A DNA stretch of 62,040 nt. Source: an uncultured virus (IMG/VR IMGVR_UViG_3300014203_000013) (taxonomy: Duplodnaviria > Heunggongvirae > Uroviricota > Caudoviricetes). The stretch lies in the IMG/VR virus record IMGVR_UViG_3300014203_000013; one strand, given 5' to 3'. Position numbers and translations under genes: made by a program. Positions 1-21,594 of the stretch are shown here, piece by piece (positions within the stretch are counted from its first letter, which is position 1; each line of letters starts with the position of its first letter). The notes below the pieces were generated by a model. It saw only the letters and a list, made by a program, of their open reading frames with translations. It was not told where the DNA came from and searched no databases.

Positions 1-2038
1 ACCAAAGATCATTCCCTTCAAGACGGAATTCAACACGGGATTCATTAATGCTTGGCTTGTGGACAATCATCCCCTTGTCTATCGCGAATTTAACATACTT
101 GTCAAAGATCGTGGTGCCGAATTTTTCCTTCTTCGGGTCACTGTTCTGAAGCAAAGCTGTCATGTATTCATAGAAGTAATGATACCTTAGCCATAGTTCT
201 GTAGTCGTAATTGCTGAATAACAAATTGCGTGACTATTAGAAGTTACATATCCGTTAGCGAAAAAAAGGTGTTCTGGAGAGTCTACTGTAATATCCATTG
301 TTTCCATTTCTCCCATACCGAGAAGAGAAATAACTTCTAGACTTTCTCCGTTTTCCATGCAGATTCTGTAACCATTTCTAAAGATAGCATCCAAACTACA
401 TACATTATAACCGTAATCAGTGTGGCACATAAACTTGTGGTTTAGCGTACAAACGATTTTATGCAATCCATCTTTCCCTTCCAACGAAAGCTTAACGCAA
501 GACTTCCTTCCTGTCTTGATAATGTCCGTTACCTTGACGTATTTTTCTCCTGAAGTTTTATCAAAACCTAAAATCATGTCTCCGATTTTAAGAGAAGACA
601 TCTTGACAACAGATCCATTTTCTTTTTTTACCTTTGTATCGGGAGATAAACATTTATTGAAGCTGTAAGACGCTGTAGATTCTATCTGATTCCAGATTTC
701 GTTTACTTGCGCTTCTGTCATTAAACCTTTTTTGACGCATTTTTCAATTGAACCGTTGATGAATTTTGGTTTCATTTCATCCATGATGTCTTTTTTCTTC
801 TTGCTAGCTCCCTTACGGAGACGATTTCCTTCAAGCGGTGACATTCCTGCCATTTCTACGGCAAGTTTCATTAAACCTTCCTGATAGGCTAGGATTCCGT
901 ATGTATCTCCCAGAACATTTTCCAGAATCTGGTTTTTCTCATATTTCTTGCCGTTCTTACGTTCCGCATATTCCACATCAAGACCCACATCTTTAGGTCC
1001 AGGGCGAATAAGAGAAGTGATTGCTGCGATATCTCCTAGACAGTCGCAACCGACCTTATCCGCAATTTTCTTGGTATACGGGTTTTCAAATTGGAATATT
1101 CCCAGAAGTTCCCCGCGTGTTCCCATTTTGATAGATTCGTGATCGTCCACAGGAATATCTTTCCTATGCAGTTCAATACCCCTATTTTCCTTAACTAGCT
1201 TGATACATTTATCGATAATAGGCAAATTATTCAACGATAAAATGTCAAATTTTATATATCCCTGGCTGGACAATTCCTGCTTTTCTCCACTTTCTGACCA
1301 AGAACTCACGACACGGCCTTCTTTATCTTTGTACACCGGTATCTTTTCAGTAAGGTTAAGATTGGAAATAATGACGCCACCGGCATGTGTCCCGAAATTC
1401 TTAGCCTGATTCCTTAAAATTTCCGCGTGTTCCTTCACTTCAGGATATTTTTCAAAGTAATTGGCAAGTTCCGGCTGTGCCTTGCAGATTTCCTCAAACC
1501 CTGCTTTGTCAAGCTTCGTGTCTTCGTCACCGTCTTCTTCTCCTCCGATTTCCGCATCAAGATTCTTCGTGACTTCCATCGCTTCTTTAACGTCCAATCC
1601 AAGCGCCCTAGCAACGTCCAGGATAACGTTCTTCGTCTTGTAGGTGCCTACGGTGCCGACACTACAGACGCGTTCCTGCCCGAATTTTTCCACAAGGAAA
1701 GCTTTGACTTCATTCCTGACATCCGGCATCAAGTCCATGTCTATATCAGGAGGATCTGCTTTCCCGAATTTTTTAAAGTCAGGAGTTATCCCGTTTTTTA
1801 CCGGGTCTAAACCGCTGATTCCTAAAAGCCAGAGGATGACACTTCCAGACTTGTTATTTTCCGAAGGTTGGTTACCCCTCCTTTCGAGGATTTCTTTGGC
1901 TTTATCTGTCTGAACAAACAAAACCCACTTTTTCAAGTCTCTAATTTCATCATTATATCTTTGCCTATAGTCATTTCCTAATTTTGAAACCAACGGATCG
2001 CAAACCTGTTTAATAATATCGATACTCGGGTATTTCAT
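1..2038 (-). CDS. dnaE: DNA polymerase III alpha-like catalytic chain lacking the PHP domain; contains a mini-intein; runs off the window start
   Basis: Not in the ORF track; translated by hand from ATG at 2038 (RBS AAGGA). Shows MKYPSID...PPDIDMD...GTHAGGVII...KFDILSL...GIFQFE...LIRPGP...TYGILAYQE...YSFNK[intein]SHAICYS, which are the DnaE palm/thumb/fingers motifs. Open to base 2. Confidence 0.95.
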   Translation of the reverse strand, partial: MKYPSIDIIKQVCDPLVSKLGNDYRQRYNDEIRDLKKWVLFVQTDKAKEILERRGNQPSENNKSGSVILWLLGISGLDPVKNGITPDFKKFGKADPPDIDMDLMPDVRNEVKAFLVEKFGQERVCSVGTVGTYKTKNVILDVARALGLDVKEAMEVTKNLDAEIGGEEDGDEDTKLDKAGFEEICKAQPELANYFEKYPEVKEHAEILRNQAKNFGTHAGGVIISNLNLTEKIPVYKDKEGRVVSSWSESGEKQELSSQGYIKFDILSLNNLPIIDKCIKLVKENRGIELHRKDIPVDDHESIKMGTRGELLGIFQFENPYTKKIADKVGCDCLGDIAAITSLIRPGPKDVGLDVEYAERKNGKKYEKNQILENVLGDTYGILAYQEGLMKLAVEMAGMSPLEGNRLRKGASKKKKDIMDEMKPKFINGSIEKCVKKGLMTEAQVNEIWNQIESTASYSFNKCLSPDTKVKKENGSVVKMSSLKIGDMILGFDKTSGEKYVKVTDIIKTGRKSCVKLSLEGKDGLHKIVCTLNHKFMCHTDYGYNVCSLDAIFRNGYRICMENGESLEVISLLGMGEMETMDITVDSPEHLFFANGYVTSNSHAICYSAITTTELWLRYHYFYEYMTALLQNSDPKKEKFGTTIFDKYVKFAIDKGMIVHKPSINESRVEFRLEGNDLW
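236..652 (-). mobile_element. Cis mini-intein (139 aa, no endonuclease) in dnaE at FNK|SHA
   Basis: CLSPDTKV...IVCTLNHKF (block B TxxH)...MDITVDSPEHLFFANGYVTSN, then Ser+1. Removal restores the conserved FNKSHA motif. Confidence 0.93.
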
Positions 2039-5474: not shown

Positions 5475-6143
5475 TTATTTGATAAATGCCTGAAACGCCT
5501 GTGGCGTAATGACGTTAAAATCCACATTGCCGCGAAATACTTCAAGGTTTGTTTTCCCGGTATACGACATTGCTGTCGAAAGATAATGCTTGAAATTATC
5601 TGTCCATTGTCCGAGGGTATATTCTACGCGGTTCTTCTTAATGATCCCTTCACTTGTCTTTAGGACTTCATGCCCCATTTCGCGTTGGGCGCGTTTTGTA
5701 GACATGCCGTAATATTCCTTTTCAAGCTCCAAACCGTTTTTGAAAGCGGCTTTAATTTCTTCAGAATACTGATCAACAATACAGTTGGTTCCCCTGACTG
5801 TCGTCTTTCCCGCGCTCTGAAGTGCCTTGTTGAAAAGACTTCCGCACATTACCTTGTCGGCTCCCAATCCAATTGCCTTGATAATTTGATCAAAGTTACT
5901 AAAACCGCCATCGGCGATGATTTCTGTTTTTAAATTAGAACGCATCTTTTCTTGATAACAATTGTCGATTAGAGAAGCTAACGGGTAGTGAACGCTTGAA
6001 TTCGCTGATGTCGTACAGTTGTGAACTACATATCCGTTTGCCACATAAGAATGGTCTTTAAAAACCGTCATGTCATTAACCATAACTTCTCGAATTTGTT
6101 CTTCGACTATTGAAGAAATTTCAACTAGCTTAAACTTTTCCAT
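5475..6143 (-). CDS. Split-intein C-fragment (42 aa) fused to the C-terminal half of a GMP reductase/IMPDH-family enzyme
   Basis: MEKFKLVEISSI...DMTVFKDHSYVANGYVVHN|CTT; extein has IIADGG, GADKVMCGSLF, YYGMS, SEG, AMSYTG motifs. Confidence 0.93.
   Translation of the reverse strand: MEKFKLVEISSIVEEQIREVMVNDMTVFKDHSYVANGYVVHNCTTSANSSVHYPLASLIDNCYQEKMRSNLKTEIIADGGFSNFDQIIKAIGLGADKVMCGSLFNKALQSAGKTTVRGTNCIVDQYSEEIKAAFKNGLELEKEYYGMSTKRAQREMGHEVLKTSEGIIKKNRVEYTLGQWTDNFKHYLSTAMSYTGKTNLEVFRGNVDFNVITPQAFQAFIK
6018..6143 (-). mobile_element. IntC of the GMPR/IMPDH split intein
   Basis: Blocks F/G ending VHN, with Cys at +1. Confidence 0.92.
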
Positions 6144-7129
6144 TTTTCTAATTCCTTAATAAAGGATATATCTTTCATCATCTTTAGACTAAAGCGAATC
6201 AAAACATATCCTCGGTCTTCTGCAATTTGATCTTTAGTTCTGTCGTTTTCTTGTTCTTCTTTTGAAGAATGAAAAAAACCTTCTCCGTCATATTCTATTA
6301 AGATTTTACCATAAATAAGGCCATCGTATAGTTTGTTTTCTAACCTAAATCCTTGTTTAACATTTGCGCCGCCAAGATAAAACCGCAAAATTTTGAAGAA
6401 AAAATCTTCTTCTTTCGACGCATATCCGCATTTCAAAAATGGTACGACATTTTCTTCCCCGAACAAAAACATAAGATTTTTCAGCATAGTTGTGTCTGTG
6501 TACTTGAATCCGAATTTCCTATTCACTTCTCTCATTGTAAATAAGTATGGATTGCTATGTATAAAGTCATAAACTTCACGATAAAATGATTTCTCTTTTT
6601 CAATTTTTTCTCTTTTGGCTTTTGTTCCCAAGATTGAATTGTTTTTTGCACCAATTCTTTTATATTCCTGTGTAGTGCAAAATCCAAAAGCTATCCACAT
6701 GTCCCTTAAAGTCCTTTTGTCATAATCATATTTTTCAGAAAGAGAAGACAAGTTCATTCTTGAATTTTTAAAATCATCGAACGAAGCTTTGAGAAGATTC
6801 TTGTCAACATCTTTATAATACAACAAATCACTTTTTCTTTGTGCCGCACTCATCTTTAATTTGTCAATTGTCTCTTGAGACGGGGGCATTCTATTTTTGT
6901 GATCCCCATAATATTTGTGCCAAATATTCCACCCTTTCTTTGTCGTAACAGGGGTACTACACCCACAATGACAGAGTGGCGTTTTACCATCTAATTCATA
7001 CAGGATAAAATAATCACCCCTTTTCATTCTGTGTGAAACTCTAAGATGTTTATAAAAATCTCTTAATACATATTGTTCTTTTTCTCCTTTGATTACTTTA
7101 TTGCAAACAAGACATTTAATCTCTTTCAT
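6125..7129 (-). CDS. Free-standing putative homing endonuclease (Vsr/DUF559-like C-terminal domain, N-terminal Zn-binding modules) between the split-intein halves
   Basis: C-terminal YDGLI..KILIEYDGEGFFH...ENDRTKDQIAEDRGYVLIRF; N-terminal CLVC..HLRVSH and CHCGC. Confidence 0.85.
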   Translation of the reverse strand: MKEIKCLVCNKVIKGEKEQYVLRDFYKHLRVSHRMKRGDYFILYELDGKTPLCHCGCSTPVTTKKGWNIWHKYYGDHKNRMPPSQETIDKLKMSAAQRKSDLLYYKDVDKNLLKASFDDFKNSRMNLSSLSEKYDYDKRTLRDMWIAFGFCTTQEYKRIGAKNNSILGTKAKREKIEKEKSFYREVYDFIHSNPYLFTMREVNRKFGFKYTDTTMLKNLMFLFGEENVVPFLKCGYASKEEDFFFKILRFYLGGANVKQGFRLENKLYDGLIYGKILIEYDGEGFFHSSKEEQENDRTKDQIAEDRGYVLIRFSLKMMKDISFIKELEKWKSLS

Positions 7130-7168
7130 TTTACTCCTTGCTTGGCGAAAAACATATACATCCAGCTC

Positions 7169-7987
7169 CTATGCCGTTTTTATCAAAAAATGTTTACTTT
7201 CGTCTAAGTCTTTCGCTTCCACCCATTTTGCATATTTTTCTATGTTCTCGTCAGTAACAAATTGTGCATCTTCTTTCTCTACTACCCAAAATTTATGTTC
7301 TTCGGTGCAGGTGATCTCTTTATTAATTGTAAGAATCTTCTTTTTGTTTTTAAATCTTGCTTTACAAACAACCTCATTTTGTCCAATATGTGTTTTAACC
7401 ATTTCTCCTGTTTTGATGTTTTCTATTTTTTCTGTTTTCCCATCATGGAGCGTGATTTTCGTTCCATCAACAAAACACGCATTTCCAGTGCCGATCCCTA
7501 AACGCACAGCATCGGCTCCTGCCTCCGCAAGATTGACGAAAGTCTCTGGTAACGCCACGTTTCCGACCATAATCCATAATCTGTCTCCAAACCTTTTTTT
7601 GGAATCTTTTATGACCTGAAGAAGTTTGTTCATATGACCGTTTGCGATATCAATAAGGGCATAGTGTCTGACAGTATTGTCCTCTTTTGACCATTCTTCT
7701 ACCAAACTCTTAAATTCGTCAAGACCATAGCTTTGAATAAGAAAAGATTCTGTCTTTTTCACCCACTTGTCCCTTCCGGTTCGCGGAAGACAGACATTGA
7801 TGGAATTATTTATAAACTGCTGGAAACTATTGACGTCGATAACACTAAACATCGGTGCGGTAATGAGCGGCAACATTCCGTCAGACCTTGAGTAAACATT
7901 GCACTGACTTCTGCTATCGATATAAGAAACAGAGGCTGGTAGCATAACGATATCAGAAAAAGAATATAAAGGTTTTGTTTTGATCAT
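7169..7987 (-). CDS. N-terminal half of a GMP reductase/IMPDH-family enzyme (no CBS domains) fused to a split-intein N-fragment
   Basis: SFSDIVMLP..SR, PLITAPM, IDIANGH, GNVA, GADAVRLGIGTGNA|CFVDGT...TCTEEHKF...stop. Confidence 0.93.
   Translation of the reverse strand: MIKTKPLYSFSDIVMLPASVSYIDSRSQCNVYSRSDGMLPLITAPMFSVIDVNSFQQFINNSINVCLPRTGRDKWVKKTESFLIQSYGLDEFKSLVEEWSKEDNTVRHYALIDIANGHMNKLLQVIKDSKKRFGDRLWIMVGNVALPETFVNLAEAGADAVRLGIGTGNACFVDGTKITLHDGKTEKIENIKTGEMVKTHIGQNEVVCKARFKNKKKILTINKEITCTEEHKFWVVEKEDAQFVTDENIEKYAKWVEAKDLDESKHFLIKTA
7172..7477 (-). mobile_element. IntN (102 aa) of the GMPR/IMPDH split intein
   Basis: Block A CFVDGTKI, block B TCTEEH, WVEAKDL, then a stop with no C-terminal HN. 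Confidence 0.92.
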
Positions 7988-8013
7988 TATTTCAATTCCT
8001 ACTTTTAAAGAAC

Positions 8014-8961
8014 TTAGGTATAGTTCTTATATGATTTCTTCTGGCGTGAACATTTCCGTCTGTTGATAGACTTCCGTTCCGATTTTTTGAAGAATTCTGA
8101 GATAACGTCAACCGTCCATCCATTACCGATGCAGTGTTTCCTCTTTGATTCTGGAATGCCGCTGGTATATCCATATGGCAGAGTCTGAAGCCTTTCGTTC
8201 TCTTCATTTGTCAGATAGCGAATACCGTCGCCAATCCTTACCTTGTTGTCCTGACTATTGCAGAATCCGCTTGCGCTTACGCATCCCGCTTTGTCTTCCG
8301 GCGTCAACACCCTGTACATACTTTGATAACGGTATTCTTTGATTTCAAGCTTACGCATCTGTTCTTTGCTTAACCAACGGTAGCTACGTTTAGGAAAGTC
8401 CGTAAGAATGTCTTTAAGGAAAATTCCCTTGTCTTTAATTTCAGAAGGAACGAGATTAGTCCAATAAAGTCTTTGTCGCTTCTGAGCGCTCAGAAGCGAC
8501 GAATTAACCCGACGAGGTTCTCCTGTCTGTAAGTAAAGACTGATAGTTTTAATCCACAGTGGTTTCATCACGACATTTTCAAGAAGAAAGTATGTCGGAT
8601 CGCATTCGTTCTTAAGCCTTGCATATTGGAAAAACAGACCGGATTTCCCATCGAACCCTTCCATCTTACCGTTCAGACTAAAACTTTGGCACGGACTTCC
8701 TCCGATAAGCAAATCGATTTTCCCGATATCAAAGTTTCCGTTTTCTGTATACAGGATGCCATCCATGTATCTTACCTTGTTTACATCTCCGATTCTGATA
8801 ATGTCCGGGAAATGTGTTTTAGAAACCATCATCGCCCAAGGGTCGATTTCACTAGAAAAATACTTCTTTACCTTGATCCCAGCACGTTCCAACGCAAGTC
8901 TTCCGCAACTGATTCCATCAAAAAGACTAAGTACTGTTATGCCGTCTTTATATTCCTTCAT
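8014..8961 (-). CDS. DNA (cytosine-5)-methyltransferase
   Basis: LSLFDGISCG, GGSPCQ, LLENV, QKRQRLYW, ERLQT, GNGW. Confidence 0.95.
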   Translation of the reverse strand: MKEYKDGITVLSLFDGISCGRLALERAGIKVKKYFSSEIDPWAMMVSKTHFPDIIRIGDVNKVRYMDGILYTENGNFDIGKIDLLIGGSPCQSFSLNGKMEGFDGKSGLFFQYARLKNECDPTYFLLENVVMKPLWIKTISLYLQTGEPRRVNSSLLSAQKRQRLYWTNLVPSEIKDKGIFLKDILTDFPKRSYRWLSKEQMRKLEIKEYRYQSMYRVLTPEDKAGCVSASGFCNSQDNKVRIGDGIRYLTNEENERLQTLPYGYTSGIPESKRKHCIGNGWTVDVISEFFKKSERKSINRRKCSRQKKSYKNYT

Positions 8962-9257
8962 TTCAGGGTTCCCTTCTGTTTTGAATATTCCATAAACTTT
9001 GTTACCCTCTTTTTCTTATCATTTTCCATTTCACGCTTCCAATATCCGCTTGGCTTCCTAATGATTCCATCTTCTTGTAAGAGTTCAACCACAGCGCAGA
9101 TATGATAGAATTCTTCTAAGATAAGTTCACCGTTGGTTCCCAATTTGGTATTAGGGTCTATGTCATCTAACCCGAAACGTAAGGCTTTGCCAACATTTTT
9201 CTGCACTTCGGCACACTCTTCAGAAAGGCATGCTAATAGATACTCGGTTTTATTCAT
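8958..9257 (-). CDS. MazG-like nucleotide pyrophosphohydrolase
   Basis: LSEECAEV...KALRFG...LILEEF all-alpha NTP-PPase pattern; second acidic motif is atypical (EFYH). Confidence 0.6.
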   Translation of the reverse strand: MNKTEYLLACLSEECAEVQKNVGKALRFGLDDIDPNTKLGTNGELILEEFYHICAVVELLQEDGIIRKPSGYWKREMENDKKKRVTKFMEYSKQKGTLK

Positions 9258-10320
9258 TGATCCCCTTCAAGATATGTGCAATGACATCTACTGTCCAGCC
9301 GTTTCCAAGCATTTTGTATCTCTGAGTGTCTGAAACACAATCTGTATAATTGTCCGGAACTGTTTGAAGCCTTTCGCATTCAAGTGGCGTGATATATCTG
9401 AAGAAGAATTCTCCGACTGGGACACGGTTTGGCAAAGTGAACGGAACGACAATATTATCTTTCGACACGGTGGAAATACAGTTGGTCTTTTTGTCATATC
9501 TGAATTCAATATATTGCGTTGTCATCCCTTCCGTTTTCATTTTCCCGTCTACGCGTTTACCGTTAAACAAACACCTTCCACGTATTGCGGCTACAGCCTG
9601 TAGGTCATTCGGTAAATCCACGATTCCAAAAAATCTCTGATTTGAATATTTCTTACAGTGGTATGCTTCAATCATCTGCATTTTATCAGAATCTTGATGG
9701 ACGGTCAAAACCCTATTGTGTTTTCTTGATGATTGTGCCAACCAAAACAAGGCTTTTTCAGTATAATAATAAGAGTGTGAATTTACTCCTTTTTCCTTAA
9801 CATCTCCCCAAGTGGTTCCTTTATCTTCTGGTTGCGTTACGTGTGGAATGTTTGTCCAATATAAACGCTTTCTATTTTGTGCGCTGACCAAACTGGAATT
9901 AATCATAATCGGATTTACGCCCAAAAGTCCAGAAATTACATCTTCATATTCTTTCTTCATACAAACATTTTCCAAAAGGAAATATTTTGGCTTACATTCT
10001 TTTAAAAGCCTAACAAATTCGAAGAATAGTTTACTTCGTGGGTCTTCGAAATTGAGTTGTTTCCCAGCGAAGCTAAAACCCTGACACGGGCTTCCTCCTA
10101 TAATGAGATCAATCTGTGGAAGGCTGTCCGATTTTACATCAAGAACATTTCCTACCTGAATAGTATTGGGAAAGTTTTTCATGCATACTTTAATCGCATT
10201 TTTATCAATTTCACTTGCGAAATAGTTCTTGCATTTTAATCCGGCTCTTTGCAATGCCAACTGCCCGCAACTCATTCCGTCAAATAAGCTTAGGACGTTA
10301 ATTCCTTCAAATGAATTCAT
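9250..10320 (-). CDS. DNA (cytosine-5)-methyltransferase
   Basis: LSLFDGMSCG, GGSPCQ, LLENV, QNRKRLYW, ECERLQT, GNGW. Confidence 0.95.
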   Translation of the reverse strand: MNSFEGINVLSLFDGMSCGQLALQRAGLKCKNYFASEIDKNAIKVCMKNFPNTIQVGNVLDVKSDSLPQIDLIIGGSPCQGFSFAGKQLNFEDPRSKLFFEFVRLLKECKPKYFLLENVCMKKEYEDVISGLLGVNPIMINSSLVSAQNRKRLYWTNIPHVTQPEDKGTTWGDVKEKGVNSHSYYYTEKALFWLAQSSRKHNRVLTVHQDSDKMQMIEAYHCKKYSNQRFFGIVDLPNDLQAVAAIRGRCLFNGKRVDGKMKTEGMTTQYIEFRYDKKTNCISTVSKDNIVVPFTLPNRVPVGEFFFRYITPLECERLQTVPDNYTDCVSDTQRYKMLGNGWTVDVIAHILKGINE

Positions 10321-11219
10321 TACTTGATTCCTTTTAGAATATGGGCGATCACGTCTACAGTCCAGCCATCTCCAAGGATTCCTGCGGCCTTATCTCTTGT
10401 AAGAATCTTTGTATAGCCTTCATCAACCGTCTGTAGGCGTTCTAATTCCGTCTGATTCAAAAACCGGATATTCTGATAAACACTGACATCTCCATGATAT
10501 TTATCCAAGTCTTTTGCTGTTACCGTCTTTAAATTGAAATTCGAAGTGAAATTTTCCATACATGCTAGGTAGTGTTGTTCGCTTTCAAAGACAATCGTTG
10601 TGAAGCCAGTTTTGAAGTAACGATAAAACATCTTCATCCGATTGCTCTGCGGACGGCTATCTGATTCCAAAAGACAACGTGCCTTGTCTCTGTCTGACCA
10701 TCCGCTTGTCAAAACTTGGTTTAGAAGAATTCCCTTGTCCTTCGGCTGTTCCACTTTTAGGTTTGTCCAATACAAGCGGTTTCGTAATTGCGCACTGATA
10801 AGAAGGGAATTAATAGCAATTGGTTCTACACCCATGATTTCGGTGATGACTGCTTTATCCGCTTCGGACATCAATCCAACGTTTTCAAGAAGGAAATATG
10901 TGGGATTCGTTTCTTTAAGAAGCCTGACATATTCGTAAAAAAGCTTCGACTTAATTCCTGCCAGACCCGTTCTGTTATACATCGCAATTGATAGATCCTG
11001 ACACGGACTTCCTCCAATAAGAAGGTCAATCTTACCAAGACTTTTACCGTCAAGCTTGGTGACATCTCCTACTTGTTTAGTATTCGGGAAGTTCGACATC
11101 GTGACCGAAATTCCATCAGTCTTGATTTCACTTGCGAAATAGTTGTCAGGAATGATCCCGATACGTTTAAGAGCTAGTTGACCACAACTCATACCGTCAA
11201 AAAGAGACAAAATATTCAT
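10320..11219 (-). CDS. DNA (cytosine-5)-methyltransferase
   Basis: LSLFDGMSCG, GGSPCQ, LLENV, QLRNRLYW, ERLQT, GDGW. Confidence 0.95.
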   Translation of the reverse strand: MNILSLFDGMSCGQLALKRIGIIPDNYFASEIKTDGISVTMSNFPNTKQVGDVTKLDGKSLGKIDLLIGGSPCQDLSIAMYNRTGLAGIKSKLFYEYVRLLKETNPTYFLLENVGLMSEADKAVITEIMGVEPIAINSLLISAQLRNRLYWTNLKVEQPKDKGILLNQVLTSGWSDRDKARCLLESDSRPQSNRMKMFYRYFKTGFTTIVFESEQHYLACMENFTSNFNLKTVTAKDLDKYHGDVSVYQNIRFLNQTELERLQTVDEGYTKILTRDKAAGILGDGWTVDVIAHILKGIK

Positions 11220-11246
11220 TCTTTTACGCCTTTCGAATTGACAACC

Positions 11247-11275
11247 ACTTTATCATTTTCGTCCGCTATTGTCAA
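11247..11275 (-). promoter_or_regulatory. Sigma70-type promoter for the methyltransferase operon
   Basis: Minus strand TTGACA-N17-TAAAGT with an extended -10 TGn; overlapped by the inverted repeat TTGACAA...TTGTCAA (11238-11275). Confidence 0.75.
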
Positions 11276-11278
11276 GTA

Positions 11279-11518
11279 TTAGGCTTCAAATCCATTGACC
11301 TTGATTTCACTTCTGCTAAAATCAAGAAAACGTTCGAACAGAAGATCGTACTTGATAGGGTCAATGTCTGTAATCCCCGTACAAAATGAAACTAATGACC
11401 CACCGGCTGAATTATGTACCGCTAATCCTTCTATATTGTATGTGTGCGTATTCCTAACACACAAATCATATACTTTCCCATTATATTCCATCTTTTTTAA
11501 CGATTTAATTTTAGACAT
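11279..11518 (-). CDS. dnaE: Split-intein C-fragment (36 aa) fused to a 43-aa DnaE palm segment
   Basis: MSKIKSL...[51 protein letters not shown]; continues the DnaE motif GRG-SAAGSLV. Confidence 0.93.
11411..11518 (-). mobile_element. IntC of the DnaE split intein
   Basis: Blocks F/G (VYDL..HTY..VHN), Ser+1. Confidence 0.92.
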
Positions 11519-13044
11519 CTATTCTCTCTTTCTTTTTCTTGGAGTAAATCCTGATTCTTCTACTAATAAGTTATAAGCCCCGAAAATTTTATACAAATAA
11601 ACAAACGACATTTTTGATTTCATTAAAAATTCTTCCCTTGTCGGAACGATTCCTGTCTCAGAAATTTGACGCTTAATTTCGTTAATGTACTTTAGTCTTT
11701 CTTCTTCAAGATTTTTCTGACCGAAACGTATTAAAGACATCCTTTTGGATCTTTCTGACATTTCCTTCCGTAACCTCTTTTTGGCACAAACTGGACAAGA
11801 ATTTCTTATGGGCGTGCATGTCCTGCTAGAAATTGTTTGTTTCCATTCATTCCCGCAGTCTGAACAAATCCACCATGCCTTTTCCGAAGACCAATATGGA
11901 TAAAAGTCTGGACCTTTATCATTCTTGTTGTAGTTCCACTGTAAGAGTAACTCAGGGCACTTAACATCAAGACGCATTTTGTGTTTTTTCTCTTCTTTTA
12001 TCCGCTGCTTTTCTTTCCTTTCGGATAATTTATTCGCGAGATAATTTTCGAAGCTTTTGGTGTTCTTAAACTTGCCGAAACCACAACATTCGATTTTATT
12101 AGAATCACAAAGTTCAGAAATCCAAAGTTCTACTTTTTTGTTATACTTTAGAATTCCCATTCTTTCCAAGTCAGCCTTGTAAAGAATAATATATCTTTTA
12201 TTGCCAAAATAAAAAGATTCTGCTGCCTCTTTTTTACGTTGAACTGTTTCAAATTCAGAAAGATTTCCTTTGATTTCCACGACATATTGAGTTCCACCAA
12301 TTTCCATTTCGAAATCTGGATAATAGTTTGAGGGTTTCCCTAATATCGTTTTGTAAGGAACATGATCCGTACACCTTTTGAAAGAACAAACTTCTATGTT
12401 ATTGTCACACCATAAAAGAAACATCAATTCCCAAGAACTAGCAAAAAAGATTCTTCCACACCTTGTAAATACCCACCCATAATAAAATCCACGTCCCATA
12501 AACTTCTGCTGACCTTCGGCATCCTTCCAGCGTTTTCTTAAGTCTTCAGAAACTTTTTCTCTTCTTTCTGGATGTTCTTTGTATCCACGACGTAAAGATT
12601 CTCCAATCCTTTTTCTTATTTCTGGGTCTTTTCGATGTACTTCTTTCAAAATTTCAGACATTTTACGTCTAGCTTCTGGTGTGCCTTGCACTTTTTTCTG
12701 AGCTTCTGAATTATGCCGCCGCCATTCTTCAGTAAATTGTTCCTTTCGAAGACATTTACCACAGAATTCTTCTTTTGCATGTTTTTTCTTGCTAAAAGTG
12801 AATTCCAAGTCGTAACAAAATGATTTCCACAACTATAACACGTACCAGACACATCCCACTTCAAATGTTTATTCAATTCATTTTCATGAATTAGCATTTC
12901 GTTTATAGGAATCGGTAGTTTCCCGAAATATTTGTATTCTACATTCTTGTTCGTTCTGATATCTATGCTTTTTATTGTACGTTCTTCAATGAAAGGACGA
13001 ATCCATTCTGGCACATCTTCTATTCTGTGATAAACGTTCCCCAT
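11519..13044 (-). CDS. Free-standing putative homing endonuclease between the dnaE split-intein halves; two overlapping ORFs joined by a -1 frameshift near 12781
   Basis: AGGAGG RBS before ATG 13044. Downstream frame has NUMOD3-like repeats, a TnsA-N-like PD-(D/E)xK core (SSWE..F...YYPDF...VEIKG), a DUF4379-like Zn ribbon (WWICSDC..W...CPVC) and an HNH-associated-repeat-like tail (PTREEF...IFGAYNLLVEESGF). Confidence 0.75.
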
Positions 13045-13093
13045 GTAAAGCCTCCTTTTAAATACTACCACTATCTAAGCATAGAGGCCAAAA

Positions 13094-14857
13094 TCAAAAA
13101 AGATCTACGATATCATCTCCTTCTAGTAGGTTTTGAGCTTCTACCCATTCTTCTTTTTGGTTCCTTGTTACAAGAATTCTATGGTTTAAAGTACAATTGA
13201 TTTTTCTTCCATCTTCAGTTTCAATTTCTATTAATTCTTCTTTTACATCATAAATAAATTTGTCAATTACTTCATTAAGTGTTCCGTCATGCGAATACAC
13301 AAATTCACCGATTTTAACATCAGATATAAATACTGGTATTTTGTTCTCTGTAATTACCCTGTTCCATGAAACAAAACACCCGCGCCCTATTCCGGTTCCC
13401 CATTCACCTCTCAATTCAATCGCCTTGTCTACGATCATTTCCGTGATAAGGAAATAATCCGCCCAACCGGCAAGGCAAATAACATCCAATTCATATTCTA
13501 GTCGTTCCGTATAGGTGTTCGAATCCTGACATTTATCAAACCCGTGTTCTCTAAATCCTTTCCATGCCATTTCTGAAAGGACTTCTTCGCTGTTTTCATA
13601 CAGCTTCGGAAGCTTGATTGATTTATCGACTTTATAGTCTTCGCAATTTACAGCTATCCATCGGGTGTTTTGACAAGCTTGTTGGAAAATATCAAATGTA
13701 AAAACATCATCTTCATAGGCATCTTGTTGATTTCCATCAGAATCGACATAGCCAGATTTGAAGAGTTCAAGAAGTTGATCATAGTTGCGATAATACAGAT
13801 TTTTTACCGTGAATTTCCAAGTATCGTCATCTTCCTTTTGAAGGTCTTGAATCGTCCTTCCCTGACGAATACACATCATAAGTTCGTGCGTCTCACTTTG
13901 TTCTGGGTAGAGATAATGGCTGTCAATACCTATAGATATTCTTGCCCCCATTTCCTGCGCGAACTTAATCAGTTTCCTGTTGAGTTCCTTCTGTTCCTTC
14001 ATTTCAATCAACTGGATTTCGATAAAGAATTCATCAAAACAAGACTTGTAAAATTCATATCTTGCCTTTGCTTCTTCAACCCTGTCCTGCATAAGCAATT
14101 CTGGAAGTTCACCAGCGAAACAGGCACTCGTCGCGAAAATTCCTTTCCCGAATTTCTTCAAAGCTTCGTCACATGTCCTTGGACTGTAGTAGAACCCGTT
14201 TAGCTGTGCGTCATTGTGTATCTTGATGATATTGTAATAGCCTTCGATGTTCTTAGCAAGTAGAATAAGATGGTTGGCACTGCGGTTAAGTTTTTTCTTT
14301 TCCGGGTCGTCGCCTCTGTAATTGTTATAATAGGCTTCCATTCCGAAAATCGGTTTGATCCCTGTTTCTTCACAGACCTGACTTTGTTTGATCCATCCCG
14401 CGATTCCGCCGTGATTTGTGACGGACATAAATTTTCGGTTTTGAGCCAATAGAAGACCAGCTAATCCCTTCCATTTTTTAGTATCTTTTTCATAACGACC
14501 GACAGTTTCGAGGGCATCTCTCCAACTATATTCGTCATGATGATGGTAGTTGAAAAATTTATCCTCGACATTTGTAAAAATGTCCTTTTCCAGTTCTTCT
14601 GTCATTCCTTCATAAAATCCGATTTTCCTTGTTAGTCTTTTGCCAATTTGAAGGACAAAAGAGGCTCCGCTAGCATATACTTCTGAAACTAAATCAACAC
14701 CTGATTTGGGATATGTAAAGCTGACTTCTCTTGTGTCAAGACACATTTCTTTCAGGTCTCTTGATGCGTCATAGTTTATGTCTGGTTTTACGATAAGAAT
14801 TTTTTTACAATCTGTTAATCTGTCTGTACACTCTTCTGTATAAACTCCATCATTCAT
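13094..14857 (-). CDS. dnaE: DNA polymerase III alpha N-terminal part (PHP domain and start of palm) fused to a split-intein N-fragment
   Basis: HHHDEYS, TNHG, IKPIFGMEAY, HLILLAKN, SACFAGE, DSHY, YTERLEYELDVI, DYFLI, GIGRG|CFVS... Confidence 0.95.
   Translation of the reverse strand: MNDGVYTEECTDRLTDCKKILIVKPDINYDASRDLKEMCLDTREVSFTYPKSGVDLVSEVYASGASFVLQIGKRLTRKIGFYEGMTEELEKDIFTNVEDKFFNYHHHDEYSWRDALETVGRYEKDTKKWKGLAGLLLAQNRKFMSVTNHGGIAGWIKQSQVCEETGIKPIFGMEAYYNNYRGDDPEKKKLNRSANHLILLAKNIEGYYNIIKIHNDAQLNGFYYSPRTCDEALKKFGKGIFATSACFAGELPELLMQDRVEEAKARYEFYKSCFDEFFIEIQLIEMKEQKELNRKLIKFAQEMGARISIGIDSHYLYPEQSETHELMMCIRQGRTIQDLQKEDDDTWKFTVKNLYYRNYDQLLELFKSGYVDSDGNQQDAYEDDVFTFDIFQQACQNTRWIAVNCEDYKVDKSIKLPKLYENSEEVLSEMAWKGFREHGFDKCQDSNTYTERLEYELDVICLAGWADYFLITEMIVDKAIELRGEWGTGIGRGCFVSWNRVITENKIPVFISDVKIGEFVYSHDGTLNEVIDKFIYDVKEELIEIETEDGRKINCTLNHRILVTRNQKEEWVEAQNLLEGDDIVDLF
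13097..13378 (-). mobile_element. IntN (94 aa) of the DnaE split intein
   Basis: CFVSWNRVIT...INCTLNHRIL...WVEAQNLLEGD, then stop. Confidence 0.92.
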
Positions 14858-18585: not shown

Positions 18586-21500
18586 TTAGACAACTGAAAT
18601 ATTAGCATCATCTTTTTCTTCTTCAGAAACGATTTCCTTCTTTTCTTCTTCTGTCATTTCCGTGCCTTCTCGTTTGTCGGGAGAATCGGAAATACTGTCA
18701 ATTGCGGCGTTGATTTCTTTCCGTAAGTCAGCATTTCCTCTGACTTCATCGACAACCGTCTGCTGCCCTTGCCATGTTTTCCCGTTAAAACTAAACCATC
18801 CGCCCTTCTTTACGATGATCCCGAGTGAAATTGCCTTTTCCACGCATCCGATGACAGAATCAATTCCGATTCCGAAAGTAATCGTATATTCAGCATTACG
18901 GAACGGAGGAGCAACTTTGTTCTTGATGCAGCTCATTTTAACCTTTACGCCGACAACGGCTTCACCTACCTTGATTTGACCGATACGTGAAAGTTTTGCG
19001 CGGATGTGGGCATAGTGGCGCAATGCTTTACCAGCAGGAGTCGTGGTCTTATCTCCATAGCTGTTATGAACAATCATTCCTCCTGCGATATAAGAATGGT
19101 TTCCGTCAACCTCTATATCGAATTTGTTCCTTTGTCTTTTGGGAGGGACATAAACAGAAACTGACTGAACGGTCCTAGCGACAGGGACAAGTTCTTTCTC
19201 TTTCCGTTCTACGGTCCAATCAAAATCAGGCATCCCTTTCTTTATTTTATATCTCATGTTCGGATGGACATATTTTGAAATTCCACGCTGGAACATCCCG
19301 CTTTGTTCTCCATACCAAACAAGACCAACACCTTCTTTAAACATTGGAAGTCCAAGACCAAGTTCCTCTGATTTTATGGCAATTTTTTCCAAGTCTCTAC
19401 CAATAATTGAGGAAGAACCGATTCTACACTTCCCAAAACCTATTTTTTCATGACTTCCGCTAAAGTTGCCATCATCCATATACCAAATCGCAAAAGATTT
19501 AGGAGAAAGATTGTCTATGTGTTCTTGACTAATTTCTCGCGGAAACTGCTTCTTCCCGAAATCTTTATACTGGTCAAACTCTGAAGATGATTTTGTCTCA
19601 AATTGAGGACGGCCTCTTATATCAAAACGCACTTCTTCGCCGAAAGATTCCGCTTTCCAAGAACAATAATCGGTCTGTTCTTGACAATGAATAAACCTTA
19701 ACGTTCCACGAGGAGAACCCTTGTCATATCTAAGGTTTCCGTCTCCAAACATACTTCCAAGAATAATTTCATGCTGGTCTTTAGAATAATAACTCCATTC
19801 TGGAATCAATACTGATTCTCCTGGTTTAATTTCACTAGCCATCTTTTCTCCATGAGGAACGAAAATAATATGATTAGGGGTAACGTTTATTTTACGAATT
19901 CCTCCCTTACCAAAGCCACATAGAGTTGAAAGCTTAAACTGTAAGAAATGTTCGCCATCTGCCATTGGTCCATTGTCGAACCAATTAGTAACCGTCTTCG
20001 GTTCTATTTTGTTTGAAACAGGATCATATGAAAGAACTTCGCAGTTAATCTTTTGATTAACAAGTTTTCCGATTTCCATGATAGTGCCATCTTTAAGCGT
20101 AATCGGAGTGCTATAATCAAAACACTGTCCAACGGCTTCACGAACTTGGTTTGTACAAAGCAATGTGATGTTATGCTTAGTAATCAGACTATTCAAAACA
20201 CGCATAGCCTGAGAAACCATTCTCGCCTGTTCTGCCATCGTTTGATCTCCGATATCGCCGTTGTCATCACTTTTGGTAGTAAGAGCCGCGATGCTATCTA
20301 TGATGATTAAGCCGATGCCGCAGTCTGATTCCGCCGCGAGTTTGGCGATGTTTAGCGCGTCTGTTCCGGTTTCCGCTTCTGTATGGATGATTCCCTGCGC
20401 CTTAACTCCTAACGCTTCTGCATAGAGAGGATCATAACTATGTTCCGTGTCCAAAAGCAAGATACCCTTTTCAGGATAATTTTCCTGGAAACTCGCGATG
20501 ATATGATAAGCAAGCGTCGATTTCCCGCTGTTATGAACGATAAAGTTATTGGCTACAAAGTTATTGTTAGGGAAATCACACTTAATATCATAAGTTTCTC
20601 GTTCTCCGACATTAATAATTGAAGTTATTTTTGTCTTGGCAGCAATGAAACTCAGATTTTTAAGCTTCATTTTTGAATGATAAACACCATGATCTTTTGA
20701 ATTAATCACCAAAAGATTAGATGCGGTGTTATTGTTCACGTTTTCATCAATGTGATGAACGTGTAGGCCTTCTGGGATGGTTTTAATTTTGTCGATTTCT
20801 TCTTTTGACGCTACGTTTAGAAAGTCTCGGTATTCATCAAACGACATTTGGTTTCTATCTGCTTCAAGAACGGCGTGTGATATTTTTACGCGGTAATATG
20901 TGTAACCATTAATAATTTTTGTTTTCGCATGAGGATGGTACTTAACCAAAATTTCAGGATAATATTCATGATCTTTTTGACCATGTGTTCTTGTGTTATT
21001 GTGAACATAGACTAGATCGCCTATTTTAAGATCAGAAAGAGGCTTAAACCCAGAATCTACCATAAATTTGTGTTCAAGAGTTGACGTAATTTTTTGGCCA
21101 TCCTCTGTAACGACTTCAAAACATGGTTTCTTTCCTGTTTTAACGACTCCGACAACCTTATTATGAATCATTTTCCCTTCGTGGTCGCAAGAAATAACAA
21201 AAAAATCACAATCTTTTTCTTGAAGATGCCTTCCTTGTTTTCGACCTACTGTAATATCCCCGGTAAAACGTTCATAAAGACGCTCTATTGTTCCTCCTTT
21301 CTCATTAATCTGTCTACCGTCCTTCCACGTTTGAAACTTAATAAAAGTATCTTTATCAAGACAAGATTCACCACCGAAGAGCTCAATAATTTTACCTATC
21401 GGTAACCCACCTCCCCACGCCCAGTCGATATCTCGATTTGTAGTCGAAATACGTTCGACATTTGAAACGACGGTTCCTCCTAGCACACCAGCGATATCAT

Positions 21501-21594
21501 GGTTCTCGCCACCCCACTGACTCTTATTTATAAGGTCAGCCAATTTCTGCATGTTCTCAAAGCGCGTAGGCTTTGCTTTTATTTCTTTAGCCAT
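18586..21594 (-). CDS. recA: RecA recombinase with two inteins (about 370 aa after splicing)
   Basis: GGLPIGKIIELFGGES|SGKST, DTEHS, IIDSIAAL, QARMVSQAMR, NQVRE, KNKVAPPFR. Confidence 0.96.
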   Translation of the reverse strand: MAKEIKAKPTRFENMQKLADLINKSQWGGENHDIAGVLGGTVVSNVERISTTNRDIDWAWGGGLPIGKIIELFGGESCLDKDTFIKFQTWKDGRQINEKGGTIERLYERFTGDITVGRKQGRHLQEKDCDFFVISCDHEGKMIHNKVVGVVKTGKKPCFEVVTEDGQKITSTLEHKFMVDSGFKPLSDLKIGDLVYVHNNTRTHGQKDHEYYPEILVKYHPHAKTKIINGYTYYRVKISHAVLEADRNQMSFDEYRDFLNVASKEEIDKIKTIPEGLHVHHIDENVNNNTASNLLVINSKDHGVYHSKMKLKNLSFIAAKTKITSIINVGERETYDIKCDFPNNNFVANNFIVHNSGKSTLAYHIIASFQENYPEKGILLLDTEHSYDPLYAEALGVKAQGIIHTEAETGTDALNIAKLAAESDCGIGLIIIDSIAALTTKSDDNGDIGDQTMAEQARMVSQAMRVLNSLITKHNITLLCTNQVREAVGQCFDYSTPITLKDGTIMEIGKLVNQKINCEVLSYDPVSNKIEPKTVTNWFDNGPMADGEHFLQFKLSTLCGFGKGGIRKINVTPNHIIFVPHGEKMASEIKPGESVLIPEWSYYSKDQHEIILGSMFGDGNLRYDKGSPRGTLRFIHCQEQTDYCSWKAESFGEEVRFDIRGRPQFETKSSSEFDQYKDFGKKQFPREISQEHIDNLSPKSFAIWYMDDGNFSGSHEKIGFGKCRIGSSSIIGRDLEKIAIKSEELGLGLPMFKEGVGLVWYGEQSGMFQRGISKYVHPNMRYKIKKGMPDFDWTVERKEKELVPVARTVQSVSVYVPPKRQRNKFDIEVDGNHSYIAGGMIVHNSYGDKTTTPAGKALRHYAHIRAKLSRIGQIKVGEAVVGVKVKMSCIKNKVAPPFRNAEYTITFGIGIDSVIGCVEKAISLGIIVKKGGWFSFNGKTWQGQQTVVDEVRGNADLRKEINAAIDSISDSPDKREGTEMTEEEKKEIVSEEEKDDANISVV
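19063..20124 (-). mobile_element. RecA intein 2 (354 aa) in loop L2, with a LAGLIDADG endonuclease
   Basis: CFDYSTPI...TPNH...IILGSMFGDG...AIWYMDDG...FDIEVDGNHSYIAGGMIVHN|S. Confidence 0.94.
20530..21363 (-). mobile_element. RecA intein 1 (278 aa) in the Walker A loop, with an HNH endonuclease
   Basis: CLDKDT...STLEHKF...HVHHIDENVNNNTASNL....H...H...TYDI..NFVANNFIVHN|S. Confidence 0.93.

What the first reader, a model, noticed from the sequence alone, without database searches (positions are those of the whole stretch)
5475..14857. Two related split inteins in one genome: natural orthogonal pair or cross-splicing
Seen: within about 9 kb there are two IntN (CFVDGT..EMVKTH..NEVV..CTEEH..WVEAKDL and CFVSWN..EFVYSH..NEVI..CTLNH..WVEAQNL) and two IntC (D.TV..DHSY..G..VHN and DLCV..THTY..G..VHN) that are visibly alike. 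Inference: all four fragments are present during infection, so either selection made them orthogonal (useful as a tool pair) or chimeras such as GMPR-N/DnaE-C form.
Basis: inference. Interest (0 to 1): 0.78.

Follow-up and report, generated by a model that had tools for sequence, protein, structure and literature searches.

The report
Two independent split-intein phage genes
A very large bacterial virus carries two enzyme genes that are each cut in half by a separate selfish element whose protein halves stitch the enzyme back together; this layout is known, and the two stitching systems are probably too different to cross-react.

Summary
A GMP-reductase/IMPDH-family gene (5475-7987) and the PHP-domain part of dnaE (11279-14857) are each broken inside an intein, with an endonuclease-like ORF between the halves: the 'fractured gene' layout of Dassa 2009. 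The two inteins are only 31% identical, typical for their two families (median 30%), and group with their own insertion-site alleles. They are separate recent invasions. A 304-kb relative has the DnaE cassette 99.5% identical within a 77%-identical N-extein, and an intein-free GMPR. A third split intein (NAD ligase) very likely lies in the same phage. Co-residence is common: 5 of 18 related viral records and a cultured Salmonella phage carry two or more. Most likely the pairs are orthogonal by default, without selection for it. Their interacting strands have opposite charge (GMPR N+5/C-2; DnaE N-5/C+4), and the GMPR intein is a charge-reversed relative of the tool intein IMPDH-1. However, co-resident pairs are not enriched for opposite charge (2 of 10, P=0.80). 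Splicing, orthogonality and co-expression are untested. This scan noted multi-split-intein phages and this three-piece DnaE before on other DNA.

The parts
7478..7987 (-). GMPR/IMPDH-family N-extein (170 aa), ends just before the catalytic Cys of the family motif
   Evidence: Pfam IMPDH; 67% identical to the matching part of the intact 347-aa gene of relative G001
7169..7477 (-). IntN of the GMPR intein (102 aa, Cys1, block B TxxH), IMPDH-1 family, basic ribbon strand
6125..7129 (-). Free-standing putative Vsr-like (PD-(D/E)xK-type) homing endonuclease, 334 aa, frame open; overlaps the IntC start by 19 nt
   Evidence: weak hits only: MTES_1575 E 0.0087, phrog_503 E 0.0075; motif region printed; the Vsr-like label is inference from position and motif
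6018..6143 (-). IntC of the GMPR intein (42 aa, His-Asn), acidic first strand; AAGGA lies upstream inside the endonuclease 3' end
   Evidence: TIGR01443 over cut-off
5475..6017 (-). GMPR C-extein (180 aa); Cys+1 is the position of the family's catalytic cysteine (from family knowledge)
   Evidence: Pfam IMPDH 180-339; 86% identical to G001
8014..11219 (-). Three C5 DNA methyltransferase genes and one small ORF between the two fractured genes
   Evidence: PF00145 on all three
13379..14857 (-). DnaE N-extein (493 aa, PHP domain), ends GRG
   Evidence: 77% DNA identity to G001
13094..13378 (-). IntN of the DnaE intein (94 aa, Cys1, TxxH), acidic ribbon strand
11519..13044 (-). Putative PD-(D/E)xK-type homing endonuclease gene, frameshifted by a 1-nt deletion near 12784; open frame in G001
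   Evidence: the deletion is also in runs X2 and X3, and absent in X6; DUF4379 and HNH_repeat
11411..11518 (-). IntC of the DnaE intein (36 aa, His-Asn), basic first strand
   Evidence: PF14890 121-155
11279..11410 (-). DnaE C-extein, only 43 aa (Ser+1; carries the FERFL segment), natural end of the N chain
   Evidence: profile 366-398; intein-free homologs P0135 and P0136 end at the same place
1..2038 (-). Separate DnaE catalytic core gene (970 aa, runs off the window to G000:C1:61126), with a contiguous mini-intein at about 236-652
   Evidence: intein-free in G001

Best explanation
Two independent selfish cassettes (split intein plus free-standing homing endonuclease gene) have inserted at conserved active-site motifs of a GMP-reductase/IMPDH-family gene and of dnaE in a ~300-kb phage. 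Each gene makes two precursors; cognate IntN and IntC associate, splice in trans and restore the enzyme chain (inferred from intact catalytic motifs and family knowledge). The cassettes move between related phages by homing (DNA pattern shown; cleavage inferred). The pairs are most likely orthogonal because they are distinct allele families at 31% identity, helped by opposite charge on their pairing strands. This is pre-existing divergence, not co-adaptation in this genome. Chimeras, if any, are trace by-products.
For: Layout matches Dassa 2009: same strand, 39- and 49-nt spacers, 19-nt overlap or abutting start. Separate families: 32 further GMPR-N+IntN proteins among 120 listed hits; DnaE alleles at 46-58%; DnaE clade UFBoot 96 excludes the GMPR intein. 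The pair's 31% ranks 46 of 84 GMPR x DnaE comparisons. Recent separate arrival: DnaE cassette 1960/1969 nt identical to G001 against 1140/1479 in the N-extein; G001 GMPR is intein-free; P0003 has IntN 101/102 identical with N-extein 122/170. Benchmarks: 15 of 16 inteins orthogonal; the IMPDH-1 C half gave signal only with its own N half in a 24-column row; a 35%-identical pair was strictly orthogonal. Ribbon charges GMPR +5/-2, DnaE -5/+4 make both cross pairs like-charged. Co-residence occurs in 5 of 18 related records and in phage CF-SP2.
Against: No splicing, binding or expression was measured. 31% is at the 91st percentile of 1427 between-family pairs, and the two families are neighbours in the tree, weakly (UFBoot 72). 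The DnaE IntC is 50-53% identical to three other GMPR-family IntC, so cross-reaction between these families is not excluded. Charge swapping on these strands alone did not make NpuDnaE orthogonal (bioRxiv 546465). The GMPR ribbon is the most basic of its family, which hints at selection.
Confidence: 0.72

Rival explanations
1. Compatibility filter or character displacement: a phage with the N-acidic/C-basic DnaE split intein can keep only a GMPR intein allele of reversed polarity, so split-intein cassettes fall into charge-defined compatibility groups.
For: The window's GMPR IntN ribbon (+5) is the family extreme: 2 of 32 homologs reach +3 or more, both its near relatives; median -1. IMPDH-1 is about -6/+4 (counted by eye). 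The pair's cross score is in the top 7% of 367 non-co-resident pairs. A GMPR allele of the opposite polarity (P0006 -3, P0158 +6) seems to share an 8461-nt contig with an intein-free DnaE-N, P0135 (inferred only from equal contig length and source). Cognate halves are charge-anticorrelated in split (rho -0.52, n=27) but not in cis inteins (rho -0.11, n=28).
Against: Only 2 of 10 co-resident pairs are like-charged across, against 39% of non-co-resident pairs (P=0.80; total charge P=0.92). The ligase intein has the same polarity as the DnaE intein (-3/+4). G016's two DnaE inteins and CF-SP2's two inteins also share polarity. Four of 13 GMPR loci have an equally or similarly repulsive score against the DnaE intein.
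Confidence: 0.15
2. Appreciable cross-splicing: GMPR-N/DnaE-C (213 aa) and DnaE-N/GMPR-C (673 aa) chimeras form during infection and are tolerated.
For: Same fold, same split site, both Cys1 class-1 inteins; 31% identity is above the between-family median of 24%. All genes lie in one co-directional run, with only one chance-level terminator-like site between them.
Against: Like-charged cross ribbons; published pairs at similar or higher identity do not cross-splice. Allelic cyanobacterial DnaE inteins do cross-react, but these two are not alleles. The chimeras would have no coherent fold.
Confidence: 0.08
3. One pair is inactive or dispensable: the halves associate without splicing, or the host supplies the function.
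For: The DnaE endonuclease is frameshifted in this strain. The DnaE C-extein is 43 aa, and the core gene carries a degenerate copy of that segment. GMP reductase may be non-essential (inference).
Against: Cys1, block B Thr/His, block F Asp, His-Asn and Cys/Ser+1 are intact in both. Both inteins interrupt conserved active-site motifs. The allele families are conserved over dozens of sequences.
Confidence: 0.05

Closest known systems
Fractured genes: split intein plus free-standing homing endonuclease (Dassa et al. 2009, PMC2677866)
   Same: Same order and strand, short spacer, overlap of the endonuclease end with the IntC start, canonical split site, fragment lengths within the reported 88-105 / 33-54 aa, and the same host types (IMPDH, DnaE, DNA ligase).
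   Different: Here the genome context is long enough to show two or three cassettes together, with intein-free and cis-intein alleles in relatives. The DnaE IntN is not close to the paper's DnaE-1 or DnaE-2 by eye. The DnaE endonuclease is frameshifted.
IMPDH-1 split intein (Dassa 2009; fast and orthogonal in Pinto 2020, PMC7090010)
   Same: Same host family; about 44 of 99 IntN and 21 of 40 IntC positions identical by eye against the supplement; shared insertion before the final W-x-x-A motif.
   Different: +1 residue is Cys (the catalytic one) rather than Ser, so the site is shifted within the motif. Charge polarity is reversed (N+5/C-2 against about N-6/C+4).
Cyanobacterial split DnaE inteins (Ssp, Npu)
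   Same: A replicative DnaE assembled by trans-splicing; acidic N and basic C polarity as in the window's DnaE intein.
   Different: Different site (GRG|S here), only weak similarity to Ssp structures (E about 0.2), adjacent genes with an endonuclease, a C-extein of 43 aa, and a third, non-spliced core chain.
Salmonella phage CF-SP2 uvsX and uvsW (OM912978.1)
   Same: A cultured phage with two fractured genes, each with split-intein halves and an intervening ORF.
   Different: Other host genes, T4-like phage; the two inteins are 35% identical and share polarity; the record does not annotate them as inteins.

Membership tests
Fractured genes (Dassa 2009) | Conserved enzyme in two same-strand ORFs, N part ending in IntN, C part starting with IntC | tested here: met
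   for both loci
Fractured genes (Dassa 2009) | Free-standing endonuclease gene between the halves | tested here: inconclusive
   ORFs are present with nuclease-like motifs, but family hits are weak (E about 0.008 for the GMPR one; DUF4379 and HNH_repeat for the DnaE one)
Fractured genes (Dassa 2009) | 27-51 nt spacer before the endonuclease; overlap with the IntC start | tested here: met
   39 and 49 nt spacers; 19-nt overlap at GMPR; abutting without overlap at DnaE
Fractured genes (Dassa 2009) | Hairpin upstream of the endonuclease start | tested here: inconclusive
   DnaE: a stem covers the Shine-Dalgarno site, z -1.46, 18 of 200 shuffles as good; GMPR: none, z +1.15
Class 1 split inteins | Cys1, block B TxxH, block F Asp, His-Asn, Cys/Ser/Thr at +1 | tested here: met
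   read from the translations
Class 1 split inteins | Trans-splicing activity | not testable with these tools
   needs an assay
IMPDH-1 intein allele family | Sequence closer to IMPDH/GMPR inteins than to others | tested here: met
   best matches are GMPR alleles, 42-44%; about 44% to IMPDH-1 by eye; tree support for the family is weak (62)
IMPDH-1 intein allele family | Same insertion point as IMPDH-1 (Ser+1) | tested here: not met
   Cys+1 here; the family uses at least three sites in this gene
Co-adapted orthogonal pair | Common origin or long co-residence | tested here: not met
   not sisters; both cassettes are near-identical to copies in diverged exteins
Co-adapted orthogonal pair | Co-resident pairs more repulsive than random pairs | tested here: not met
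   2 of 10 against 39%, P=0.80; low power
Co-adapted orthogonal pair | No cross-splicing in a matrix | not testable with these tools
   needs an assay
GMP reductase (as opposed to IMPDH) | Equivalog score over cut-off | tested here: inconclusive
   the intact G001 protein scores best on GMP reductase NF003966 (110 bits), far below the cut-off of 344

The most novel reading that the evidence does not exclude
Split-intein cassettes home between large phages as whole units, and co-residence filters them by the charge polarity of their pairing strands. The window's GMPR intein is a natural charge-reversed IMPDH-1 relative, kept because an IMPDH-1-like allele would cross-splice with the resident DnaE intein. 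The phage would then hold a naturally screened set of three mutually orthogonal inteins, and the GMPR intein could be orthogonal even to IMPDH-1.
Probability: 0.15. Interest if true: 0.68.

Novelty: new member of a known kind. Interest (0 to 1): 0.36.

Why it matters
As biology it is a further case of a layout known since 2009. It adds DNA-level evidence that split-intein cassettes still spread between phages, and shows that several can share one genome. As a resource it offers two or three untested natural split inteins, one of them a charge-reversed relative of IMPDH-1, a fast intein used for multi-piece protein assembly. That allele against IMPDH-1 is a natural experiment on whether charge polarity sets partner choice, a point on which engineered swaps gave mixed results.

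Tried and rejected
1) Recent common origin of the two inteins: rejected. 2) Selection through charge polarity among co-resident pairs: not found; 10 pairs from 6 genomes, not independent. Rows dropped: G1_DnaE from the correlations (near-duplicate), the W/G1 DnaE pair from the null set, G007's orphan IntC. One IntN was trimmed to 103 aa; cis inteins were cut to about 99 + 37 aa. 3) A group I intron bridging the 43-aa tail to the DnaE core: rejected, since about 9 kb of other genes lie between and intein-free homologs end at the same place. 4) The frameshift at 12784 as an assembly error: rejected. 5) Single-protein scan of viral contigs with GMPR-N: 0 of 22 stretches confirmed. Metagenome scan: 4 loci, one the G001 relative again, three short. 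Genome scan: none of 565 stretches. So no further genome with both cassettes was found. 6) Sequencing runs: no RNA holder listed. 7) Promoter and terminator scans are at chance level (59 against 52.8; 10 against 11.5). 8) PDB searches found no close structure (best intein gp41-1, E 1.5e-4). 9) No complex model was obtained, so cognate against cross binding is unmodelled. 10) Literature searches for several natural split inteins in one phage genome gave 0 papers; the library lacks most subscription papers. 11) A comparison of the GMPR endonuclease with that of L018 was not obtained.
Full report
CONTEXT. The window is G000:C1:62001-124040. C1 (124 kb) joins C2 (85 kb) by a 123-nt overlap. C4, C20, C19 and C38 form a second chain with the closest tetranucleotide profile to C1. 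C4, C20 and C38 match separate stretches of a 304-kb viral record, G001 (CheckV 100%), which also matches the window. The two contig groups share only one 72-nt match and sum to 297 kb. They are therefore very likely one large phage; no direct join was found. Runs from two further landfill studies hold 94% and 85% of the sampled words. Laid contigs bridge the GMPR halves with their endonuclease, but none spans the whole stretch.

OBSERVATION. All four fragments exist as described. GMPR locus, minus strand: N-extein 170 aa plus IntN 102 aa; a 39-nt spacer; a 334-aa ORF; IntC 42 aa plus C-extein 180 aa, overlapping that ORF by 19 nt. DnaE locus: N-extein 493 aa plus IntN 94 aa; a 49-nt spacer; an endonuclease-like gene broken by a 1-nt deletion near 12784; IntC 36 aa plus only 43 aa. 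The deletion is also in runs X2 and X3 and is absent from G001 and X6. The rest of DnaE is a 970-aa gene 9 kb downstream with its own cis mini-intein. Intein-free homologs P0135 and P0136 end at the same residues as the 43-aa tail, and P0125 has an unsplit mini-intein at the same site. The short tail is thus the natural chain end, and all three stages of Dassa's model exist at this site. Profile scans of the assembly found three split inteins (GMPR, DnaE, NAD ligase on C4) and four cis inteins, all on phage contigs; the ligase IntN was found but missed.

HOW RELATED ARE THEY? In an alignment of 56 inteins (28 split, 28 cis) the pair is 31% identical on both halves. The between-family median is 24% (1427 pairs; 91st percentile). 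GMPR-family against DnaE-family pairs have median 30%, and this pair ranks 46 of 84. Each intein is closer to alleles at its own site (44%; 46-58%). In a 124-column tree the DnaE alleles form a clade (UFBoot 96) without the GMPR intein; the two groups are neighbours with weak support (72). The GMPR intein belongs to a wide family: 33 of 120 listed hits, itself included, are GMPR-N plus IntN, and three more carry the intein at a later site. By eye against the supplement of PMC2677866 it shares about 44 of 99 and 21 of 40 positions with IMPDH-1, which has Ser+1; here +1 is the catalytic Cys position (family knowledge).

HISTORY. Against G001 the DnaE cassette is 99.5% identical (1960/1969), the N-extein 77% and the short C-extein 96%. 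G001 has intact GMPR, ligase and DnaE core genes, and a different second split intein. P0003 carries the GMPR IntN at 101/102 with a 72%-identical extein. Both cassettes have therefore moved recently, as homing predicts; direction is unknown. There was little time for co-adaptation in this genome.

HOW COMMON? Nineteen records were chosen because they had an intein in or near GMPR or dnaE; 18 were searched, and only 2 are at least 90% complete. All 18 carry a split intein and 5 carry two or more (G001, G002, G005, G007, G016). The sample is biased towards intein-rich genomes, and incomplete records undercount. The cultured phage CF-SP2 has fractured uvsX and uvsW with 35%-identical inteins. 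This scan's notes list three other such phages (unchecked AI notes). Four library searches found no paper on this co-residence, which does not show absence from print.

ORTHOGONAL OR CHIMERIC? Published matrices make orthogonality the default between non-allelic inteins: 15 of 16 (PMC7090010), and strict at 35% identity (PMC12707363). Allelic cyanobacterial DnaE inteins do cross-react (bioRxiv 546465). I counted charge on the IntN strand before block B and on the IntC strand before block F, defined from the alignment and not from a structure. GMPR is +5/-2, DnaE -5/+4, ligase -3/+4. Both cross pairs of the finding are like-charged. Cognate halves are anticorrelated in split inteins (rho -0.52, n=27) and not in cis inteins (-0.11, n=28); relatedness inflates significance. 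The GMPR ribbon is the extreme of its family (2 of 32 homologs at +3 or more) and is reversed relative to IMPDH-1. Against selection: only 2 of 10 co-resident pairs are like-charged across, against 39% of 367 other pairs (P=0.80), and the ligase and DnaE inteins share polarity. Charge alone made NpuDnaB orthogonal but not NpuDnaE. Co-expression is plausible from gene packing; the promoter and terminator scan is at chance level.

MECHANISM: SHOWN AND INFERRED. Shown: anatomy, intact splicing motifs, allele families, recent lateral movement, charge polarity, frequency of co-residence. Inferred: trans-splicing, endonuclease-driven homing, co-expression, orthogonality, GMP reductase rather than IMPDH activity, non-covalent pairing of the two DnaE chains.

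PAPERS SEEN. PMC2677866: parts 2-5 of 7 of the text and part 1 of 3 of its supplement. PMC7090010: passages, section 9 and supplement rows; its sequence table was not seen. PMC12707363, PMC10189870 and bioRxiv 546465: passages only; preprint supplements were not seen. Other papers: search listings only. The catalytic role of the GMPR/IMPDH Cys and the host labels for GyrB, NrdA, dUTPase and RNA ligase are recalled from motifs.

VERDICT. Real, a new member of a known kind: two, probably three, independent fractured-gene cassettes, most likely orthogonal by divergence (0.72). Interest 0.36. The testable novelty is the charge-reversed IMPDH-1 relative and the compatibility idea (probability 0.15, interest 0.68 if true).

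Noticed in passing
window 11279-11410 and <1-2038: Two-chain DnaE: the spliced N chain ends after FERFL, and the separate core begins with a degenerate copy of about 70 aa of that segment (25% identity, E 0.002). The same ending is seen in 3 of 23 related loci, two of them intein-free. Noted before on a 304-kb phage (e1-5708573).
   Followed up: partly
G000:C4:26242-29694 (L009): Third split intein, in an NAD-dependent DNA ligase, with an HNH-like ORF between; G001's ligase is an intact 645-aa gene.
   Followed up: yes
L006 1165-3267 (G001): Split intein in an RNA-ligase-like gene of the relative (label recalled from motifs); the window's phage has the uninterrupted 373-aa homolog at C1:17256-18377. 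It is the closest match to the ligase intein (35%).
   Followed up: partly
window 18586-21594: RecA with two cis inteins; the second is 99.3% identical to G001's in 79-85% identical exteins, the first 81%.
   Followed up: partly
window 30886-33651: SNF2 helicase with a cis intein that starts with Ala and carries a LAGLIDADG domain.
   Followed up: no
L179 (G005:C1:139000-147500), L191 (G016), L023/L196 (G007): Single genes cut by two split inteins in tandem: a ribonucleotide-reductase-like gene and dnaE in three pieces, and a gyrase-B-like middle piece with IntC at its start and IntN at its end, whose first IntN was not found (host labels from motifs).
   Followed up: partly
L031; P0038, P0040, P0046: The IMPDH-1-family intein also occupies a third site further along the GMPR gene.
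   Followed up: no
window 8014-11219: Three tandem C5 methyltransferases where G001 has two; runs X2 and X3 show an extra base after 8082 in the last one.
   Followed up: no
G000 contigs C1, C2, C4, C19, C20, C38: About 297 kb of phage binned with a bacterial assembly whose genes look Bacteroidales-like by eye. Strong Shine-Dalgarno sites in the phage suggest another host (inference).
   Followed up: no
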